A DNA stretch of 64,000 nt from Escherichia coli (GTDB taxonomy: Bacteria; Pseudomonadota; Gammaproteobacteria; Enterobacterales; Enterobacteriaceae): assembly GCF_029227855.1 (NCBI RefSeq), contig NZ_CP074356.1; one strand, written 5' to 3'. Below the pieces are notes generated by a model. That model was not told where the DNA came from, searched no databases, and saw nothing but the letters and a program-made list of their open reading frames with translations. Both the position numbers and the translations under genes were made by a program. Shown in pieces: positions 2 through 8,940 of this stretch. Position 1 is the stretch's first letter; every line of letters begins with the position of its first letter.

Positions 2-2974
2 GCTGCGGACCGGATCATCCGCTGGTCCGATAACGACCAGACGTGGAGCCGTTTCACCTACGATGAACAGGGCCGGTGCGTGAATGTCACCGGGGCGGAG
101 GGCTATTACAACGCCACGCTGGACTATGGTGACGGCTGCACCACCGTGACGGACGGCAAGGGCATTCACCGTTATTACTATGATCCTGACGGCAATATTC
201 TGCGGGAAGCAGCGCCGGACGGCAGCACCACCACGTATGAATGGGATGAATTCCATCACCTGCTGGCCCGTCACTCCCCTGCCGGGCGGGTGGAGAAATT
301 TGAATACAACGCCGCACACGGTCAGTTAAGCCGTTACACGGCGGCAGACGGCGCGGAGTGGCAGTACCGCTATGATGAGCGCGGCCTGCTCAGCAACATC
401 ACCGACCCTGCCGGGCAGACGTGGACACAGCAGTGTGATGAACGCGGCCTGCCGGTAAGTCTGGTGTCGCCACAGGGCGAAGAGACCCGGCTGGCATACA
501 CCGCTCAGGGGCTGCTGTCGGGAATATTCCGCCAGGATGAACGGCGTCTGGGCATAGAGTACGACCACCACAACCGGCCGGAAACACTCACCGACGTGAT
601 GGGCCGTGAACACCACACCGAATACAGCGGTCACGACCTGCCGGTGAAGATGCGCGGCCCCGGCGGTCAGTCAGTGCGGTTGCAGTGGCAGCAGCACCAT
701 AAACTGAGTGGCCTTGAGCGCACTGGCACCGGCGCGGAAGGGTTCAGCTATGACCGCCACGGCAACCTGCTGGCCTGGACGGACGGCAATGGTGTTGTCT
801 GGACAATGGAGTACGGCCCGTTCGATTTGCCGGTGGCGCGAACGGACGGTGAAGGCCACCGCTGGCAGTACCGCTATGATAAAGACACGCTGCAACTGAC
901 AGAAGTCATTAACCCGCAGGGTGAGTCATATCTTTATGTTCTGGATAACTGCGGCCGGGTGACGGAAGAGCATGACTGGGGCGGCGTGGTCTGGCGTTAC
1001 CGCTATGACGCCGATGGCCTGTGTACCGCCAGGGTCAACGGCCTGGAGGAAACCATCCTCTACAGCCGGGACGACGCAGGCCGCCTGGCAGAAGTCATCA
1101 CGCCGGAAGGCAAAACGCAGTATGCGTATGACAAATCCGGCAGGCTGACGGGTATCTTCAGCCCGGACGGCACATCACAGCGCACCGGCTATGACGAACG
1201 CGGGCGGGTGAATGTCACCACTCAGGGCCGACGGGCCATTGAATACCACTACCCCGATGAACACACCGTCATCCGCTGTATCCTGCCACCGGAAGATGAA
1301 CGCGACAGACACCCCGGTGAATCCCTGCTGAAAACCACGTACCGCTACAACGCAGCCGGAGAACTGGCAGAGGTCATCCTGCCGGAGGATGAGACGCTGA
1401 CGTTCAGCCGTGATGAGGCAGGACGTGAAGTGCTCCGGCACAGTAACCGGGGTTTTGCCTGTGAGCAGGGCTGGAATGCAGCCGGTCAGCTTACCAGCCA
1501 GCGCGCCGGACTTTTCCCGGCAGAAGCCACATGGGGCGGGCTGCTCCCCTCACTGGTACGGGAGTACCGTTACGACAGCGCGGGCAATGTGTCGGCTGTC
1601 ACCAGCCGGGAAGATTACGGACGGGAAACTCGCCGGGAGTACCGGCTGGACCGGAACGGCCAGGTCACGGCGGTGACAGCCTCAGGCACCGGGCTGGGCT
1701 ATGGCGAAGGCGATGAGTCCTATGGCTATGACAGTTGTGGCTACCTGAAGGCGCAGTCTGCGGGCAGGCACCGGATAAGTGAAGAGACTGAGCGGTATGC
1801 CGGAGGCCACCGGCTGAAACAGGCCGGAAACACGCAGTATGACTATGACGCCGCAGGCCGGATGGTCAGCCGCACCAGACACCGTAACGGCTATCGCCCG
1901 GAAACAGAGCGGTTCCGGTGGGACAGCCGGGACCAGCTGACCGGGTATTGCAGCGCACAGGGTGAACAGTGGGAATACCGCCACGACGCCAGCGGCAGAC
2001 GGACGGAAAAACGCTGCGACCGGAAGAAAATCCGCTTCACGTACCTGTGGGACGGCGACAGTATTGCGGAAATCCGGGAATACCGCGATGATAAACTGTA
2101 CAGCGTAAGGCACCTGGTGTTTAACGGCTTTGAGCTGATAAGCCAGCAGTTTAGCCGGGTACGGCAGCCGCACCCGTCCGTGGCCCCGCAGTGGGTGACG
2201 CGGACGAATCATGCGGTGAGCGATCTGACGGGCCGTCCGCTGATGCTCTTTAACAGTGAAGGTAAAACCGTCTGGCGACCGGGACAGACCAGCCTGTGGG
2301 GGCTGGCACTCAGCCTGCCCGCGGACACCGGCTACCCGGACCCGCGCGGGGAACTGGACGCGGAAGCCGACCCCGGCCTGCTGTATGCAGGACAGTGGCA
2401 GGATGCGGAATCCGGGCTGTGCTATAACCGGTTCCGGTATTACGAGCCGGAAACAGGGATGTACCTGGTGAGTGATCCGCTGGGGTTGCTGGGGGGTGAG
2501 CAGACTTACCGGTATGTGCCGAATCCGTGTGGGTATGTTGATCCTTTGGGATTAGCAACATGTCCCATAATCAGACAACGGGTGCTGGCTAACCTTGAAG
2601 CCAGTCGGGCAGCAAGGGCTGCATCTAATTTTGGTAAGAAAAATATCTATGATTTTATCAAGGCAACTCAATCTGCTATCCCTGGCACCTCTATCCCAAA
2701 ATCTTTTGAGATTATAACTGCTAATGGTACTTTCTGGGTACACCCAAATGCTACAAAACATATGGCTGAATATTTGACTCGGAACGGTCTCTCACATTCA
2801 ACTTCTGTAGAGAGCCAAATAATGTTAACAAGTTTTCACGAAGCTGTAAGTTTGGCTAGTGCTCAAGGTATAAAGTATGAAGAAATGATGAATGTTGGCG
2901 GCTGGGAACTAGTATTTAGTCAAGCTAAATCTGACTCGGCTTTATCAGTTATTAAACATGCTCTTTATAAATGA
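2..2974 (+). CDS. Rhs-family polymorphic toxin, 5'-truncated by the window edge; YD-repeat core ending in a DPLGL motif, then a ~140-aa C-terminal toxin domain of unassigned family
   Basis: The reading frame is open from position 2 to the stop at 2974. Repeated YDxxGR(L/V) motifs run throughout, and the core ends with RYYEPETGMYLVSDPLGL...YVDPLGL followed by a lower-GC extension (ATCPIIRQ...KHALYK). Confidence 0.85.
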   Translation, partial: AADRIIRWSDNDQTWSRFTYDEQGRCVNVTGAEGYYNATLDYGDGCTTVTDGKGIHRYYYDPDGNILREAAPDGSTTTYEWDEFHHLLARHSPAGRVEKFEYNAAHGQLSRYTAADGAEWQYRYDERGLLSNITDPAGQTWTQQCDERGLPVSLVSPQGEETRLAYTAQGLLSGIFRQDERRLGIEYDHHNRPETLTDVMGREHHTEYSGHDLPVKMRGPGGQSVRLQWQQHHKLSGLERTGTGAEGFSYDRHGNLLAWTDGNGVVWTMEYGPFDLPVARTDGEGHRWQYRYDKDTLQLTEVINPQGESYLYVLDNCGRVTEEHDWGGVVWRYRYDADGLCTARVNGLEETILYSRDDAGRLAEVITPEGKTQYAYDKSGRLTGIFSPDGTSQRTGYDERGRVNVTTQGRRAIEYHYPDEHTVIRCILPPEDERDRHPGESLLKTTYRYNAAGELAEVILPEDETLTFSRDEAGREVLRHSNRGFACEQGWNAAGQLTSQRAGLFPAEATWGGLLPSLVREYRYDSAGNVSAVTSREDYGRETRREYRLDRNGQVTAVTASGTGLGYGEGDESYGYDSCGYLKAQSAGRHRISEETERYAGGHRLKQAGNTQYDYDAAGRMVSRTRHRNGYRPETERFRWDSRDQLTGYCSAQGEQWEYRHDASGRRTEKRCDRKKIRFTYLWDGDSIAEIREYRDDKLYSVRHLVFNGFELISQQFSRVRQPHPSVAPQWVTRTNHAVSDLTGRPLMLFNSEGKTVWRPGQTSLWGLALSLPADTGYPDPRGELDAEADPGLLYAGQWQDAESGLCYNRFRYYEPETGMYLVSDPLGLLGGEQTYRYVPNPCGYVDPLGLATCPIIRQRVLANLEASRAARAASNFGKKNIYDFIKATQSAIPGTSIPKSFEIITANGTFWVHPNATKHMAEYLTRNGLSHSTSVESQIMLTSFHEAVSLASAQGIKYEEMMNVGGWELVFSQAKSDSALSVIKHALYK

Positions 2975-3504
2975 CGATTATGCTTACATTAGAAAATGAA
3001 ACAAACTACAAAGATGTTGTTGTTAATATAGATGAATTTGTACCTTTTGATATAACTTTTGGAAAGGGGAGCGAACAGTGTTTGTACTGGAGAGGCGGCA
3101 ATGGTAAAAGTTCTTTGGTTGAAGTTGGGTTAAATATGTACAGCGGAGAAGTAAGTAACATCACACTAGCAAATATCGATTCAGGTGAAATTAACATTAC
3201 AGATGAGATGTTAGCCAACAACCTTCCTGAAATACAAGGGTCTGTTATATTTCAGACAAGCGAGTGGCTTAATAAAGACATTTCCGAATACTCAAACAGA
3301 TTTATTGATGATTTTGATTGCAATATCAAGTTAATAATTGGTAGTAATTACATTAAATTATTATTTAAAAAAGCAACAAATCCCATTTGTTATATCATTA
3401 ATAGGAATATAAGATTTGGTTTTTCTTTGAGTAGGGAACTTTCGACATTGGAAATATTAGACCTCAATCAAGAAAAATTAGATATTCTAAAGTTATTTAA
3501 ATAG
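2971..3504 (+). CDS. Putative cognate immunity protein for the upstream Rhs toxin domain
   Basis: A 177-aa ORF whose ATG overlaps the toxin stop (ATGA at 2971-2974). It is AT-rich and sits immediately downstream of the toxin, the usual toxin-immunity arrangement. Confidence 0.55.
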   Translation: MTIMLTLENETNYKDVVVNIDEFVPFDITFGKGSEQCLYWRGGNGKSSLVEVGLNMYSGEVSNITLANIDSGEINITDEMLANNLPEIQGSVIFQTSEWLNKDISEYSNRFIDDFDCNIKLIIGSNYIKLLFKKATNPICYIINRNIRFGFSLSRELSTLEILDLNQEKLDILKLFK

Positions 3505-3995
3505 TTTTAGTGTTTGAAACTTACCGAGAGATGATAGCTATGAATGAATACAAAAACATCCATCTTGGAGGAAACAATGGAATGTTAATCCATTAAAAAA
3601 CATACTTCAATATCTTTAGTGAAGAAAGAGTTGTATGAAAGAAATATATCTTATGTGAGCGACATGATGCATGCTAATTATATTATTGGCCGGAAATTTT
3701 ATGATGATAGCAAAAAGGAGGGGTTATTTCTGTAAGAATGGATATACCCGCAGGGTTTGAACCAGACATTTATTTGTTGAAGTCTAAGATCCAAATGGAA
3801 GCATTTATATCCCTCAGATATTATGCGTTGACGGGTTGATAAAGATACTTTTAGAGGGTTAATAAATGGAGAACGTATAATAAATCTCTTAAACAAACTA
3901 TAACCTGTACTAATGAAAAAAATGGGAATAGATAAGTTAATAGCCTATTCTAAAAATGGTAAAGTGGTTTTACTTCCAAAATAATGGAGTTTAGT

Positions 3996-4427
3996 ATGAA
4001 AATCGAAGCTAATTCCCTTACTCATCCCTATGACTACAACGCCTCACTGAACAATTATTTACATTATTTTGAGAATTTCTCTCGTAATGACTGGAATAAA
4101 GATTCATGTGGAGGATATTTTACTTTTAGAGATGATGACAGAGAGTGTGTTTTGTTTTTTGTGAATTATGGTGATAATTTTTCATTGCGCTATGATTGTA
4201 CACAAAGTTCTGATGGAATAGTGTCATGCTGGTATAGTAACCATGAAGATGATAAAATGAATATCATCGTCGATGCTGATACAGAACAATTTATCCCTTT
4301 AGGTTCTTGCTTACCTCCTGATATTACTTTATCAGTAATAAAAGATTTTTTCAAAAATCCTTTAGAGAAATCAAAAAAAGTAAAATGGATGAATGCAGAT
4401 GACATTGACTGGTCATCTGTGTATTAA
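3996..4427 (+). CDS. Hypothetical protein, possible orphan immunity protein
   Basis: An ORF of ~143 aa (from MKIEANS; an upstream ATG at 3984 is also possible) with AT-rich composition, lying in the island downstream of the Rhs toxin. No recognisable catalytic motif. Confidence 0.4.
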   Translation: MKIEANSLTHPYDYNASLNNYLHYFENFSRNDWNKDSCGGYFTFRDDDRECVLFFVNYGDNFSLRYDCTQSSDGIVSCWYSNHEDDKMNIIVDADTEQFIPLGSCLPPDITLSVIKDFFKNPLEKSKKVKWMNADDIDWSSVY

Positions 4428-5289
4428 AGTTGGATTGGATAATTATCTGTTTCAAAAATCATTAAATTTAGAACCTATCTGTTCAACAGAGCTGCCTTGA
4501 ACAGCAGGTTCTTTTATGATGTCCAGGAGCGAATATGCCTGTGATGTCTGGCACTCAGCATCTGACTGACCTGGACTACTGATCCTACTCACACAGGGAG
4601 CTAGACCTGGAAGCAACCTACTGTAAGCAGTGCAGTAGCAGCCCACCTCACATCAGTCCTTGCAAGGTGTGGGCCTTTGTGATCTTGCTCTGTATTGCTG
4701 AGATCCTCAGGAAGGACTCGAAATTTAATCAGGAAGGCCGTTGCTAAAAATCAAAAAATAAATTCAAGAGCAATTTCTAAAACTTTTGAATCTACTGTAT
4801 CGGATGAGGTTTTCACTCCTTTCCAAAAGGTGAGTTTTCAAGCATTCAAGTTTCTGTTATGACCAAAACTTCACCATTTAACACTAATCCGAGTATTATG
4901 TTACCATGAAGAAAAAAGATATTAGATTTGCAATATCCATTAACTCCAACTCAAGTAAGATAGAATTAATGGAAAAATTAAAAACATAATCCCAGGGCTT
5001 ATTGAAATAACTCCCAGTGCATTAAGAGAAGAAAAAACATGGTAGTTATTGAAGATAATGATCTTTATGACTCTATAAAAGCAGAGGGAGTTGATGGATG
5101 GATGTATTATAAATTCATATTATCCATATTCCCATTAAAGGGAGTAGACACAACATTAGAATATCAACGGAAATTATCTTTTCTTTTCTTAAAGAAATTA
5201 AAAGATGCGGGTCTGTTAGGTGAACTTATATGCGAGGATGATTTTCATGACTGATGACCTCTACATATATCCTCAGTTCGTGGCTGGTA

Positions 5290-5631
5290 TTACATGATCT
5301 GACAGGGAAAGATCGTAGCGAAATCAAAAAAGACGTGGATTTCCCGGAAGCCGGTGAAGACACGGCGCTCTGCGACAAGGAGACTAAACCGCCGAGGATA
5401 GCCCAGGGCAGCAGCAACGTTTTTATCAACAATCAGCCTGCCGCACGCCAGGGAGACAAACTGGAGTGCAGTGCGGCGATCGTGGAAGGTTCGCCGGACG
5501 TCTTTATTGGGGGTGAGCAGGTCACCTATCTGGATATCCAGCCGGAGTTCCCGCCGTGGCAGAGAATGATCCTGGGGGGAATAACGATAGCCAGCTATCT
5601 TCTGCCGCCAGCGCAGGGAAAGATCACGTAA
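5290..5631 (+). pseudogene. PAAR-domain fragment, probably the C-terminal part of the N-terminal PAAR region of a T6SS-type Rhs or PAAR protein
   Basis: A GC-rich segment inside the 5254..5631 ORF encodes IAQGSSNVFINNQPAARQGDKLECSAAIVEGSPDVFIGG, matching the PAAR motif pattern. The composition shifts abruptly near 5290, and no credible N-terminus or Rhs core follows. Confidence 0.5.
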
Positions 5632-5700
5632 CGCTGCTTTTTTGTACTAAATAATTCGCACTAAATGTTCAATAATTGAGATATTCCTTATTACCTAAAT
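5614..5700 (+). repeat. Direct repeat copy 1 (~90 bp; cagggaaagatca...tttgtactaaataattcgca...gatattcc.tattacctaaa)
   Basis: About 80% identical by eye to 7645..7738. It lies at the 3' junction of the PAAR fragment. Confidence 0.6.
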
Positions 5701-5750
5701 ACAGTTCCACCAAGATTACCTAAACCCAAATGAGGTAAAAGATAGTGGGT

Positions 5751-6112
5751 ATGAATAAAAATGAAATCCATTTCCCTATAGGATATGGTTGGTTGAATGA
5801 AAAAAAATTATTGGCACCAGTGAATTTAGCCAATTAGAACCATGGTTTTATCTAGATGAGAACAGGTGTTTTTTTGCGAATAAAAAATGGCCAAATGTCA
5901 TAGGTGAACAATTATTCGCTTTTGCTAAACGTCAAGATAATGATGAATTGGCTTGTTTCAAAATTAATGAATCTGGAGTCTGTGAGGGTGTTTATTTAAT
6001 TAATGGGTGGACTCCTAACGGGTTTGATATTATACAATTTTACCCTGATTTTTGGGAATGGGTACATTTGGTTATACAAGATGTCTCGGAGTGGATTGAT
6101 AATAAAGGATAA
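5751..6112 (+). pseudogene. Frameshifted immunity-like gene; any family resemblance (e.g. SMI1/KNR4-like) is tentative
   Basis: ATG at 5751 gives MNKNEIHFPIGYGWLNEKKLLAPVNLAN then a stop. The +1 frame continues KKIIGTSEFSQLEPWFYLDENRCFF...EWIDNKG to 6112. The frame break coincides with an A8 homopolymer near 5803-5810. Confidence 0.35.
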
Positions 6113-6141
6113 TTTGAAACAAAAGTAAAAAACCGCCTTCA

Positions 6142-6840
6142 TTGAAGGTAACGTGGAGTGGTGGGCGGAGCAGCCTGCCCGCAGACACAGACTACCCGGA
6201 CCCGCGCGGGGAGCGGGACGCGGAAGCCGACCCCGGCCTGCTGTATGCAGGACAGTGGCAGGATGCGGAATCCGGACTGTGCTATAACCGGTTCCGGTAT
6301 TACGAGCCGGAAACCGGGATGTACCTGGTGAGTGATCCCCTGGGGTTGCTGGGGGGTGAGCAGACTTACCGGTATGTGCCTAATCCTAGTGGGTATGTTG
6401 ATCCTCTGGGATTAGCAACGTGTCCTATACTCAGACAGTGGGCGCTGACTAACCTTGAAGCCAGTCGGGCAGCAAGGGCTGCATCTAATTTTGGTAAGCC
6501 TCTGGTCCAGCGAAATAAAACGATTGGCGATAAAGTAAGGGATATGATTGCCAAAGAGAGGGGAACCACTCTAATTGAACAAAATTATAGAGTGACAGGA
6601 GGATTAAAGCGTATTGACGTTGTTGATGGAGTAACGGGTATAGAATCTAAAGTCGATCGAACAGGGTTAACAACCCGAGTACGGCAAGAGGTAGCGCGGG
6701 ATATTAAGATTTTGAGAAGTGAGCAACTTGATCAAATTGAATGGGTGTTTACAAGAAGTTCAACTACAGGGAAGATTGGGCCAACTAAACCACTTGAAGA
6801 TCTTTTAAATAAACATGGTATACCGATTATTTATCGATAA
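6142..6840 (+). CDS. Orphan Rhs C-terminal module: core-end repeat (DPLGL) plus an alternative toxin domain, possibly a PD-(D/E)xK-like nuclease
   Basis: Positions ~6176-6500 are near-identical to 2310-2630 (the end of the first Rhs core plus 26 codons). The sequences then diverge into a different C-terminal domain containing RIDVVDGVTGIESKVDRTG. The reported ATG at 6142 is probably not the native start. Confidence 0.7.
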   Translation: MKVTWSGGRSSLPADTDYPDPRGERDAEADPGLLYAGQWQDAESGLCYNRFRYYEPETGMYLVSDPLGLLGGEQTYRYVPNPSGYVDPLGLATCPILRQWALTNLEASRAARAASNFGKPLVQRNKTIGDKVRDMIAKERGTTLIEQNYRVTGGLKRIDVVDGVTGIESKVDRTGLTTRVRQEVARDIKILRSEQLDQIEWVFTRSSTTGKIGPTKPLEDLLNKHGIPIIYR

Positions 6841-7739: not shown

Positions 7740-8940
7740 TTATTGCTTATACATGATCAAATACTCCTTACATAATTAAGGAGAACAAAATGGAACTTAA
7801 AAAATTGATGGAACATATTTCTATTATCCCCGATTACAGACAAGCCTGGAAAGTGGAACATAAATTATCGGATATTCTGCTGTTGACTATTTGTGCCGTT
7901 ATTTCGGGTGCAGAAGGCTGGGAAGATATAGAGGATTTTGGGGAAACACATCTCGATTTTTTGAAGCAATATGGTGATTTTGATAATGGTATTCCTGTTC
8001 ACGATACCATCGCCAGAGTTATATCCTGTATCAGTCCTTCAAAATTTCACGAGTGTTTTATTAACTGGATGCGAGATTGCCATACTTCAGATGATAAAGA
8101 CGTCATCGCAATTGATGGAAAAACACTCCGGCATTCTTATGACAAGAGTCGCCGCAAGGGAGCGATTCATGTCATTAGTGCGTTCTCAACAATGCACAGT
8201 CTGGTCATCGGACAGATCAGGACGGATGAGAAATCCAATGAAATTACAGCTATCCCTGAACTTCTTAACATGCTGGATATTAAAGGAAAAATCATCACAA
8301 CTGATGCGATGGGTTGCCAGAAAGATATTGCAGAGAAGATACAAAAACAGGGCGGTGATTATTTATTCGCTGTAAAAGGAAACCAGGGGCGGCTAAATAA
8401 AGCCTTCGAGGAAAAATTTCCGCTGAAAGAATTAAATAATCCAGAGCATGACAGTTACGCCATTAGTGAAAAGAGTCACGGCAGAGAAGAAATCCGTCTT
8501 CATATTGTTTGCGATGTCCCTGATGAACTTATTGATTTCACGTTTGAATGGAAAGGACTGAAGAAATTATGCGTGGCAGTCTCTTTTCGGTCAATAATAG
8601 CAGAACAAAAGAAAGAGCCAGAAATGACGGTCAGATATTATATCAGTTCTGCTGATTTAACCGCAGAGAAGTTCGCCACAGCAATCCGAAACCACTGGCG
8701 CGTGGAGAATAAGCTGCACTGGCGTCTGGACGTGGTAATGAATGAAGACGACTGCAAAATAAGAAGAGGAAACGCCGCAGAATTATTTTCAGGGATACGG
8801 CACATCGCTATTAATATTTTAACGAATGATAAGGTATTCAAGGCAGGGTTAAGACGTAAGATGCGAAAAGCAGCCATGGACAGAAACTATCTCGCGTCAG
8901 TCCTTGCGGGGAGCGGGCTTTCGTAATCTTGCCCTGCGTT
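7740..8940 (+). mobile_element. ISAs1-family (H-repeat) insertion element; boundaries approximate
   Basis: Contains one intact transposase ORF. The terminal inverted repeats could not be delimited by eye. Confidence 0.4.
7790..8926 (+). CDS. ISAs1-family transposase (H-repeat-associated protein; YhhI/YdcC/YbfD-like)
   Basis: A 378-aa ORF ([32 protein letters not shown]...[31 protein letters not shown]) recognised as the H-repeat protein family found inside Rhs elements. Confidence 0.85.

What the first reader, a model, noticed from the sequence alone, without database searches (positions are those of the whole stretch)
4440..4905. ORF-free, CpG-poor stretch with composition unlike the surrounding island
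About 450 bp with no credible ORF on either strand. GC content is intermediate, CG dinucleotides are very few, and the local sequence texture (for example ggtgagttttcaag, runs of cctgg/cagcag) resembles neither the AT-rich immunity genes nor the core genome. It could be a non-coding RNA, a heavily degraded gene or a foreign or chimeric insert.
Basis: seen in the sequence. Interest (0 to 1): 0.4.

Follow-up and report, generated by a model that had tools for sequence, protein, structure and literature searches.

The report
Gene and IS remnants, Rhs island
The ORF-free, CpG-poor stretch is an ordinary recombination scar in an E. coli Rhs toxin island: the tail of one immunity module, the last ~160 bp of a diverged ISAs1-family insertion sequence, and the frameshifted end of a toxin gene.

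Summary
Window 4428-4905 has no ORF above 64 aa, and its CpG content is the lowest in the 64 kb. It is not one object and not an artefact: the same DNA sits at the same place in 167 of 5,426 complete E. coli chromosomes.

It has three parts:
1. **4428-4531:** spacer, a conserved hairpin, and the first ~10 codons of a lost DUF4303-family gene. These travel with the upstream deaminase-immunity gene.
2. **4532-4692:** 160 bp at 52% GC with zero CpG (10.7 expected). This is the right-terminal remnant of a diverged ISAs1-family insertion sequence. It ends in the family's terminal inverted repeat exactly at the junction.
3. **4693-4909:** the last ~71 codons of a nucleotidyltransferase-type Rhs toxin gene, frameshifted. 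Its cognate immunity gene follows and is also broken here. Intact parents exist in strains GF43 and O121.

Rfam finds nothing, and the IS remnant folds no better than shuffles, so a non-coding RNA is not supported. Its homology to a bacterial IS makes a non-bacterial origin very unlikely.

One oddity remains unexplained: every aligned CpG of the E. coli IS copies is non-CpG in the remnant, and the five in the well-aligned end are TpG or CpA. Overall this is ordinary decayed sequence and of low interest.

The parts
3903..3984 (+). Stub of the MafB19-type deaminase Rhs toxin tip (last ~26 codons and the stop). This is all that remains of toxin B in this lineage.
   Evidence: It translates to ...MKKMGIDKLIAYSKNGKVVLLPK*, matching the end of the full-length Rhs-deaminase gene of strain GF8. 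Homology to loci with the intact gene begins at 3903. Pfam PF14437 is recorded on the intact homologues.
3984..4427 (+). Cognate immunity gene of the deaminase tip (immunity B), intact.
   Evidence: It directly follows the deaminase tip in E. coli AR_0019 and GF8, in Salmonella and in other loci. Homologues were listed.
4428..4469 (+). AT-rich spacer after immunity B.
   Evidence: Shared with a second, diverged deaminase/immunity module (L017-L019), with 7 differences in 42 positions.
4470..4512 (+). Conserved hairpin (AGAACCTATCTGTTCAA / TTGAACAGCAGGTTCT). It may be a terminator or a translational-control element; its function is untested.
   Evidence: Fold z-score is -3.4 (plus strand) and -5.1 (minus strand) against dinucleotide shuffles. 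Only 1 of 43 positions, in the loop, differs between the two modules, against 7 of 42 in the adjacent spacer (Fisher P=0.03). The terminator scan did not call it.
4500..4531 (+). 5' end (about the first 10 codons) of a lost DUF4303-family gene. It overlaps the 3' arm of the hairpin.
   Evidence: Window frame 0 reads NSRFFYDVQER; the intact L017 ORF begins MNSRFFYDVLERLVEHIK and matches PF14136 (30.3 bits against a cutoff of 23). DNA homology to L017 ends at 4531; beyond it 55 of 82 positions differ.
4532..4692 (+). Right-terminal remnant (~160 bp) of a diverged ISAs1-family insertion sequence: the pseudogenised 3' end of the transposase gene plus the right inverted repeat. This is the CpG-free, ~52% GC core of the finding.
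   Evidence: Bases 4647-4692 match the right end of the window's own ISAs1 (8891-8936) at 36/46, local score 42 against shuffles 19.0±2.2 (max 29). The match ends exactly at the junction, in GATCTTGCTCTG (IS right repeat GATCTTGCCCTG; left end CAGGGAAAGATC). The whole remnant is collinear with the last ~155 bp of four ISAs1 copies (97/149 identity, z 11-14). Peptide motifs VMSGTQHL and HLTSVLARCG match LFSGIRHI and [10 protein letters not shown] with the same spacing. It also matches the right end of a complete ISAs1-family element on an Enterobacter plasmid at 81% over 48 nt, E=5e-9. Zero CpG against 10.7 expected.
4693..4909 (+). 3' remnant (last ~71 codons and the stop) of a nucleotidyltransferase-fold (PF01909) Rhs toxin tip gene, frameshifted and lacking the catalytic motif.
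   Evidence: It matches the C-terminus of E. coli Rhs protein P0001 at 89%. The intact parent gene in strain GF43 aligns from 4692/4693 onward. It is 73% identical to intact tips in L004-L006. The intact tip passes Pfam NTP_transf_2 (28.6 bits against a cutoff of 21). There is a +1 at 4703, shared by the aligned window and O121 copies, and a -1 near 4817 in the window lineage.
4906..5254 (+). Cognate immunity gene of the nucleotidyltransferase toxin (immunity C). It is a pseudogene in this lineage.
   Evidence: It is intact (116 aa) in O121 and GF43 and conserved next to the toxin in L004-L007. The window copy has two 1-bp deletions in poly-A runs.

Best explanation
The stretch is a non-functional recombination scar in the orphan array of a vgrG-linked Rhs toxin island. 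It is built from three leftovers.

**Shown:**
1. 4428-4531 is the 3' flank of the deaminase-immunity module: spacer, hairpin, and the start of a DUF4303-family gene.
2. 4532-4692 is the right end of a diverged ISAs1-family insertion sequence, finishing with its terminal inverted repeat.
3. 4693-4909 is the last ~71 codons of a nucleotidyltransferase-type Rhs toxin gene. Its partner immunity gene follows.

**Inferred history:**
- An ISAs1-family element inserted into the toxin gene ~71 codons before its stop.
- A later deletion ran from about codon 10 of the DUF4303 gene to a point ~160 bp from the IS right end. It removed the rest of the DUF4303 gene, whatever lay between, the 5' part of the toxin gene and most of the IS.
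- This composite already existed while the deaminase tip was still on the full-length rhs gene, as in strain GF8.
- In the window's lineage a newer tip/immunity pair then displaced the deaminase tip, leaving a 26-codon stub.
- Small indels have since accumulated in the toxin remnant and in the downstream immunity gene.

The odd composition is simply that of the IS fragment, which comes from a family member 65-80% identical to E. coli's own ISAs1 copies and lacks CpG. The stretch most likely does nothing. It may be carried passively on read-through transcripts of the rhs operon, which is an inference from the co-transcription of orphan modules reported for the CDI system of E. coli EC93 (PMC3150448).
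For: **Context.** A vgrG/Rhs island with ISAs1, next to nrfB/nfrA.

**Not an artefact.** Single copy, chromosomal, in 167 of 5,426 complete genomes, and in 4 metagenome contigs with the same island.

**Left part.** 85.5% DNA identity to a second module as far as 4531, where an intact DUF4303 gene follows.

**Right part.** The intact parent Rhs tip and immunity gene are present in GF43 and O121, and intact homologues in L004-L007.

**Middle part.**
- Significant alignment to the ISAs1 right end, terminating in the inverted repeat exactly at the junction.
- Whole-length collinearity with four IS copies, and transposase C-terminal motifs with matching spacing.
- An independent match to the terminus of a complete ISAs1-family element on an Enterobacter plasmid.

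**History.**
- Variable sites step from 1.5% (immunity B and 4428-4691) to 5-7% from 4692 onward.
- ISAs1 activity at this very locus: in L022/L023 an ISAs1 left end abuts position 4517.
- GF8 shows the order of events.

**No sign of function.** No Rfam hit, fold z +1.0/-0.9 for the middle part, and no conserved ORF.
Against: - The IS homology is strong only over the last 46-48 bp (78-81%). Over the other ~110 bp identity is low, and the alignment rests on collinearity and two short peptide motifs.
- No closer ISAs1-family relative was found. ISfinder could not be searched.
- No pre-deletion allele was recovered (immunity B followed by an intact DUF4303 gene at high identity, or the toxin gene carrying a complete IS), so the order and number of events are inferred.
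- The complete absence of CpG in the remnant is not explained by the scar model itself.
- Transcription was not tested.
Confidence: 0.85

Rival explanations
1. The CpG-free core is a fragment of eukaryotic (host or dietary) DNA captured at an illegitimate-recombination junction. The precedent is the 685-bp human L1 fragment in Neisseria gonorrhoeae.
For: - Zero CpG with excess CA/TG and CT/AG.
- It is the top-scoring of 3,192 windows for a human-like dinucleotide table, at +17 bits (the table is from memory).
- No relative turned up in two 22-mer scans of 100,044 species genomes, in plasmids, phages or viral contigs, or in protein searches.
- The precedent is described in PMC3042738.
Against: - The core is homologous to the right end of bacterial ISAs1-family elements and ends in their inverted repeat at the junction.
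- An ordinary 230-aa E. coli ORF reaches +9.7 bits in the same composition test.
- AA/TT is strongly under-represented (0.47), unlike bulk vertebrate DNA (the comparison is from general knowledge).
Confidence: 0.01
2. The stretch encodes a small non-coding RNA or a regulatory RNA element.
For: - The region is ORF-free.
- A strong hairpin lies at 4470-4512 (z -3.4/-5.1) and is well conserved between two diverged modules.
- The 281-nt stretch 4470-4750 gave z=-3.2 on the minus strand.
Against: - The fold signal comes only from the hairpin in the spacer. The CpG-poor core has z +1.0/-0.9.
- Rfam has no hit at the gathering threshold, and only E>1 hits at permissive thresholds.
- No promoter or terminator excess.
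- Divergence in 4428-4691 (1.5%) equals that of the neighbouring gene (1.6%).
- IS3 and ISAs1 cut the stretch in many strains.
Confidence: 0.03
3. The similarity of the core to ISAs1 is restricted to the terminal ~46 bp. The remaining ~110 bp (4532-4646) would then be a remnant of some other, unsampled gene or element.
For: Identity upstream of 4647 is low. The local alignment and BLAST pick up only 4645-4693.
Against: - The semi-global alignment of the whole remnant scores z 11-14 against four IS copies.
- Two transposase motifs occur in the correct order with 34 against 35 codons of spacing, followed by the stop codon at the homologous place.
- The zero-CpG character is uniform across all 160 bp.
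Confidence: 0.08
4. The stretch is an assembly chimera or contamination in the source genome.
For: Its composition is unlike its surroundings.
Against: Identical or near-identical sequence lies at the same locus in 167 independently assembled complete chromosomes from many hosts and countries. It has lineage-specific variants and IS interruptions, and it is also in four metagenome contigs.
Confidence: 0

Closest known systems
Orphan toxin/immunity modules and gene fragments downstream of rhs and cdiA genes (Poole et al. 2011, PMC3150448; the 'C-terminal displacement' model of Rhs evolution, from my own knowledge)
   Same: It lies downstream of a full-length rhs gene in a vgrG-linked island. 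It contains the 3' part of a toxin tip that is fused to a full-length Rhs in another strain, followed by its cognate immunity gene, and it is interrupted by IS elements. PMC3150448 describes such arrays, including fragments that lack the demarcating motif and orphans disrupted by IS elements.
   Different: The toxin remnant here keeps only the last ~71 codons. It has no Rhs core or demarcation motif and no catalytic motif. Both the toxin remnant and, in this lineage, the immunity gene are dead, so this is a scar rather than a reusable module.
ISAs1-family insertion sequences of E. coli (ISEc1, the 'H-repeat' classically associated with Rhs elements; the association is from my own knowledge)
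   Same: The remnant has the family's right terminal inverted repeat and homology to the transposase 3' end. Complete ISAs1 copies sit in the same island (window 7790-8926), and one abuts this very stretch in L022/L023.
   Different: Only ~160 bp remain. It is 65-80% identical to the E. coli copies, so it derives from a different family member. It has lost every CpG that the E. coli copies carry at aligned positions.
Human L1 fragment in Neisseria gonorrhoeae (Anderson & Seifert 2011, PMC3042738)
   Same: A short, compositionally foreign, non-coding insert fixed in a subset of strains of a host-associated bacterium.
   Different: That fragment is 98-100% identical to a human element. The present one is homologous to a bacterial IS, and no eukaryotic match could be sought or shown.

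Membership tests
ISAs1-family insertion sequence (as a remnant) | Terminal inverted repeat of the family at the element boundary | tested here: met
   4681-4692 GATCTTGCTCTG against the IS right end GATCTTGCCCTG (window 8925-8936) and ATCTTACCCTG (L031). It is the reverse complement of the left end CAGGGAAAGATC seen in L022. The match ends exactly at the junction with the toxin gene.
ISAs1-family insertion sequence (as a remnant) | Collinear homology to the 3' end of the transposase gene | tested here: met
   97/149 identity, z 11-14 against four copies. Motifs [16 protein letters not shown] and [20 protein letters not shown] have matching spacing and the stop at the homologous place. The homology is weak upstream of 4647.
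ISAs1-family insertion sequence (complete element) | DDE transposase gene (PF13808 + PF01609) and both ends | tested here: not met
   No Pfam hit in any frame of 4520-4700. Only the last ~48 codons' worth of sequence remains, so this is a remnant and not an element.
Rhs orphan toxin/immunity module | Homologous to the C-terminal tip of a full-length Rhs protein in another strain | tested here: met
   GF43 WP_170987160.1 and P0001.
Rhs orphan toxin/immunity module | Followed immediately by the cognate immunity gene | tested here: met
   The ATG at 4906 overlaps the toxin stop. The same pairing is seen in GF43, O121 and L004-L007. In the window the immunity gene is frameshifted.
Rhs orphan toxin/immunity module | Retains the Rhs core fragment / DPxGL demarcation that allows recombination onto the main gene | tested here: not met
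   Homology to the intact tip begins only ~71 codons before the stop. The DPLGL motif and the whole N-terminal half of the tip are absent.
Nucleotidyltransferase-fold toxin domain (Pfam PF01909) | Domain match above the curated cutoff, with the catalytic GS...DxD region | tested here: not met
   The intact tip scores 28.6 bits against a cutoff of 21. The matched region (HGSRARGDAVSGVSDIDI) lies upstream of the breakpoint and is missing from the window.
Structured non-coding RNA (any Rfam family) | Covariance-model match at the gathering score, or thermodynamic stability beyond shuffles | tested here: not met
   Every hit in 3400-5700 has E>1. No gathering-level hit lies in the stretch. The core's z is +0.99/-0.91.
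Intrinsic terminator (hairpin 4470-4512) | GC-rich stem-loop followed by a T run | tested here: inconclusive
   The stem-loop is stable (z -3.4) and conserved. Its loop is 10 nt, the stem is AT-rich and only TTTTAT follows, and the scan called no terminator.
Vertebrate/host-derived DNA | Near-identical match to a eukaryotic genome | not testable with these tools
   No eukaryotic nucleotide database was available. The compositional resemblance is outweighed by homology to a bacterial IS.

The most novel reading that the evidence does not exclude
The IS remnant's total loss of CpG could be a footprint of methylation-driven CpG decay in a former host. At all 10 aligned CpG sites of the E. coli ISAs1 copies the remnant is non-CpG, and the 5 in the well-aligned end are all CpG-to-TpG/CpA transitions. 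On this reading the fragment descends from an ISAs1-family element that lived for a long time in an organism with CpG-specific cytosine methylation or strong CpG avoidance, before reaching the E. coli Rhs island. That would make it a small compositional fossil pointing to an unusual donor lineage for Rhs accessory DNA.
Probability: 0.12. Interest if true: 0.3.

Novelty: already known. Interest (0 to 1): 0.1.

Why it matters
It matters little biologically. It is one more worked example of how Rhs orphan arrays build up debris through IS insertion, deletion and tip displacement.

It is useful for annotation. In 167 complete genomes this ~480 bp is left blank, and it could be labelled as an ISAs1-family remnant plus a toxin pseudogene.

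It also carries a methodological caution. A short IS end from a diverged family member can look like 'eukaryote-like' DNA by composition, and it can escape standard similarity searches.

The uniform CpG loss is a minor curiosity about the donor lineage.

Tried and rejected
**Searches for relatives of the core that found nothing useful**
- Rfam at permissive and gathering thresholds: nothing.
- Distant blastn in E. coli genomes: only the same locus.
- blastn and six-frame tblastn against phages and plasmids: nothing at protein level. Two weak plasmid DNA hits I first dismissed as noise; they later proved to be the ISAs1 signal.
- Exact 22-mers in 100,044 species genomes: 0 hits, twice.
- 20-mers in viral contigs: 0 hits.
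- Metagenome 22-mer: only the same E. coli island.
- Six-frame search of 5.8 billion proteins: only the toxin tip.
- Exhaustive phmmer of 1.84 billion representatives: only spurious ORF calls on E. coli copies of the stretch itself.
- Pfam on all frames: nothing.
- Peptide-pattern scan of viral contigs: one chance hit, rejected.
- Sequence strings in the paper library: 0.

**Searches for a pre-rearrangement allele**
- None among 165 complete genomes or draft contigs. The variants found are IS3- or ISAs1-truncated forms.

**Ideas considered and rejected**
- Local hypermutation by the neighbouring deaminase toxin: the core is GC-richer, not AT-richer, than its surroundings.
- A hidden reading frame in the core: CTG/CAG are spread over all phases and every frame has stops.
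- A dispersed repeat or MITE: the stretch is single copy.
- Host DNA capture: see the rival explanations.

**Technical note**
- My first shuffle script hung. I rewrote it, and the results agree with the tool's z-scores.

Full report
**1. The observation**

Window 4428-4905 lies between the stop of an immunity-type ORF (3984-4427) and the ATG (4906) of the next small ORF. Its longest ORFs are 64 and 55 aa. The reported span holds 5 CpG in 466 bp (observed/expected 0.26), and the lowest-CpG 300-bp windows of the entire 64 kb all fall here. Among 2,588 GC-matched windows, only those overlapping this spot have 3 or fewer CpG. The depletion is concentrated in 4536-4691: GC 0.53, 0 CpG against 11.0 expected, P=1.7e-5. 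The flanks 4428-4535 and 4692-4907 are not significantly depleted (P=0.16 and 0.23). CpG positions are 4530, 4719, 4739, 4801 and 4890.

**2. Not an artefact**

The 483-bp stretch occurs once per genome, on the chromosome, in 167 of 5,426 complete E. coli genomes. Of these, 109 are at 99% identity or more and 58 at 95-99%. It always lies in the same vgrG/DcrB/Rhs island next to an ISAs1 element and nrfB/nfrA. Four metagenome contigs carrying a core 22-mer are the same island. Thirty genomes carry only 4428-4606, cut by IS3.

**3. Right third: a toxin gene remnant**

A six-frame search hit one protein, an E. coli Rhs protein (P0001). Its last ~70 residues match window ~4698-4907 across two frames.
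- Its tip passes Pfam NTP_transf_2, at 28.6 bits against a cutoff of 21.
- Intact homologues, each followed by a 111-116 aa partner gene, were recovered. They align with window 4692-5248 at 73% (E=1e-85).
- Strain GF43 has the intact parent arrangement: a full-length Rhs with this tip, a 116-aa immunity gene and the same PAAR fragment. Base-level identity starts at 4692/4693 (G|TATTGCTGAG).
- The remnant lacks the catalytic HGS...DID region. It carries a +1 at 4703, shared by the aligned window and O121 copies, and a -1 near 4817 in the window lineage.
- The downstream immunity gene is intact in O121 and GF43. In the window it is broken by two 1-bp deletions in poly-A runs.

**4. Left quarter: the trailing end of the upstream module**

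The ORF 3984-4427 is the cognate immunity gene of a MafB19-type deaminase Rhs tip (PF14437). In AR_0019 and GF8 that tip is still part of the full-length Rhs gene. The window keeps only its last ~26 codons, at 3903-3983.

A second, diverged module (L017-L019, whose immunity protein is 47% identical) shares DNA with window 4290-4531 at 85.5%. There an intact DUF4303-family gene follows, beginning MNSRFFYDVLERLVEHIK; the window reads NSRFFYDVQER and then diverges.

The spacer holds a hairpin at 4470-4512. It is thermodynamically exceptional (z -3.4/-5.1) and better conserved than the adjacent spacer (1/43 against 7/42 differences, P=0.03). It is not a dispersed repeat.

Variable-site density among E. 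coli copies is 1.6% in the immunity gene and 1.5% in 4428-4691, but 5-7% from 4692 onward. So 4692 is a seam between DNA segments with different histories.

**5. The core: an ISAs1-family remnant**

- E. coli distant blastn;
- phages;
- species-representative genomes;
- viral contigs;
- Pfam;
- tblastn against plasmids and phages;
- the 5.8-billion protein collection.

By composition it looked vertebrate-like: CG 0, CA/TG 1.71, AG/CT 1.66. It scored +17 bits for a human-like dinucleotide table, the top of 3,192 windows, although an ordinary ORF elsewhere reaches +9.7.

The exhaustive representative search returned only spurious ORF calls on E. coli copies of the stretch. Aligning one of those contigs (L028) exposed a match between 4647-4692 and the 3' end of the window's own ISAs1 element at 8891-8936. 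The follow-up tests gave:
- 36/46 identity, local score 42 against 19.0±2.2 (max 29) in 500 shuffles. The match ends exactly at the junction, in GATCTTGCTCTG. That is the IS right inverted repeat (GATCTTGCCCTG), complementary to the left end CAGGGAAAGATC seen in L022.
- The whole 161 bp is collinear with the last ~155 bp of four ISAs1 copies (97/149 identity, z 11-14). Two transposase C-terminal motifs occur in the right order and spacing, followed by the stop.
- An independent, complete ISAs1-family element on an Enterobacter plasmid (84.9% transposase identity to the window's copy) matches 4645-4692 at 81% (E=5e-9), again ending at its terminus. This is the weak hit I had wrongly dismissed.

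The core is therefore the right-terminal remnant of a diverged ISAs1-family element.

**6. Mechanism**

Shown: the identity of the three pieces and their junctions, and that the composite already existed with the deaminase tip on the main rhs gene (GF8).

Inferred:
- An ISAs1-family element inserted into the nucleotidyltransferase tip gene.
- A deletion from about codon 10 of the DUF4303 gene into the IS left only ~160 bp of its right end.
- A new tip/immunity pair (window ~2500-3504) later displaced the deaminase tip in this lineage.

ISAs1 is demonstrably active here. In L022/L023 an ISAs1 left end abuts position 4517, and IS3 cuts at 4606 in other strains. This fits published descriptions of orphan arrays disrupted by IS elements (PMC3150448). 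It also fits the view that illegitimate recombination is a major source of small variable segments in E. coli (PMC2884548).

There is no evidence of function for the core: fold z +1.0/-0.9, no Rfam hit, and no excess conservation.

**7. What remains unexplained**

At every aligned CpG of the E. coli ISAs1 copies the remnant is non-CpG. The five in the well-aligned terminal 46 bp are all CpG-to-CpA/TpG transitions. E. coli is not known to methylate CpG (general knowledge), so this probably reflects the donor lineage of this IS family member rather than decay in place. The tools here could not identify that lineage.

**8. Verdict**

This is ordinary decayed sequence of a well-known kind: Rhs orphan-array debris plus an IS remnant. 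It is not a non-coding RNA or an assembly chimera, and a non-bacterial origin is very unlikely. Interest is low.

Noticed in passing
window 4470-4512: A stable hairpin sits just after the immunity gene and overlaps the start of the lost DUF4303 gene. It is almost invariant between two modules whose flanks differ by ~15%. It could be a terminator or a translational-control element; its function is unknown.
   Followed up: partly
window 3505-3902: A second unannotated, AT-rich, ORF-free gap (~400 bp) lies between the first immunity-type ORF (2971-3504) and the deaminase-toxin stub. It is probably more module debris. None of the loci held explained it beyond the same island.
   Followed up: partly
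window 5302-5313: The 12-mer CAGGGAAAGATC at the start of the PAAR-domain fragment is identical to the ISAs1 left-end sequence seen in L022. It may mark another IS-related junction, or it may be coincidence.
   Followed up: no
L022/L023 3500-3700 (E. coli draft assemblies): In these strains an ISAs1 element begins immediately after window-equivalent position 4517, right after the hairpin. Everything up to the IS has been deleted.
   Followed up: yes
L028 1-218 (639-bp metagenome contig): To the left of window-equivalent 4495, the hairpin's left arm and the immunity gene are replaced by unrelated DNA. That DNA encodes, on the other strand, a small very acidic peptide (…DDDKDDDHDDDDDDDESDSEKSQK) followed by a terminator-like hairpin. 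This is either a real rearrangement or an assembly join.
   Followed up: no
window 21341-22033 (minus-strand 230-aa ORF): It contains a 159-bp CpG-free run at 44% GC. It is the second most 'human-like' window by dinucleotide score, which shows that ordinary genes can approach this signal.
   Followed up: partly
L001 (strain AR_0067) 1718-6547 and 12698-14935: In this close relative of the window, both the main Rhs gene and nrfB are annotated as pseudogenes with internal stops.
   Followed up: no
window 37684-37750 (-) and 16201-16277 (-): The only Rfam gathering-level hits in the window are the enterobacterial sRNA STnc480 and a tRNA-Arg (TCT).
   Followed up: no
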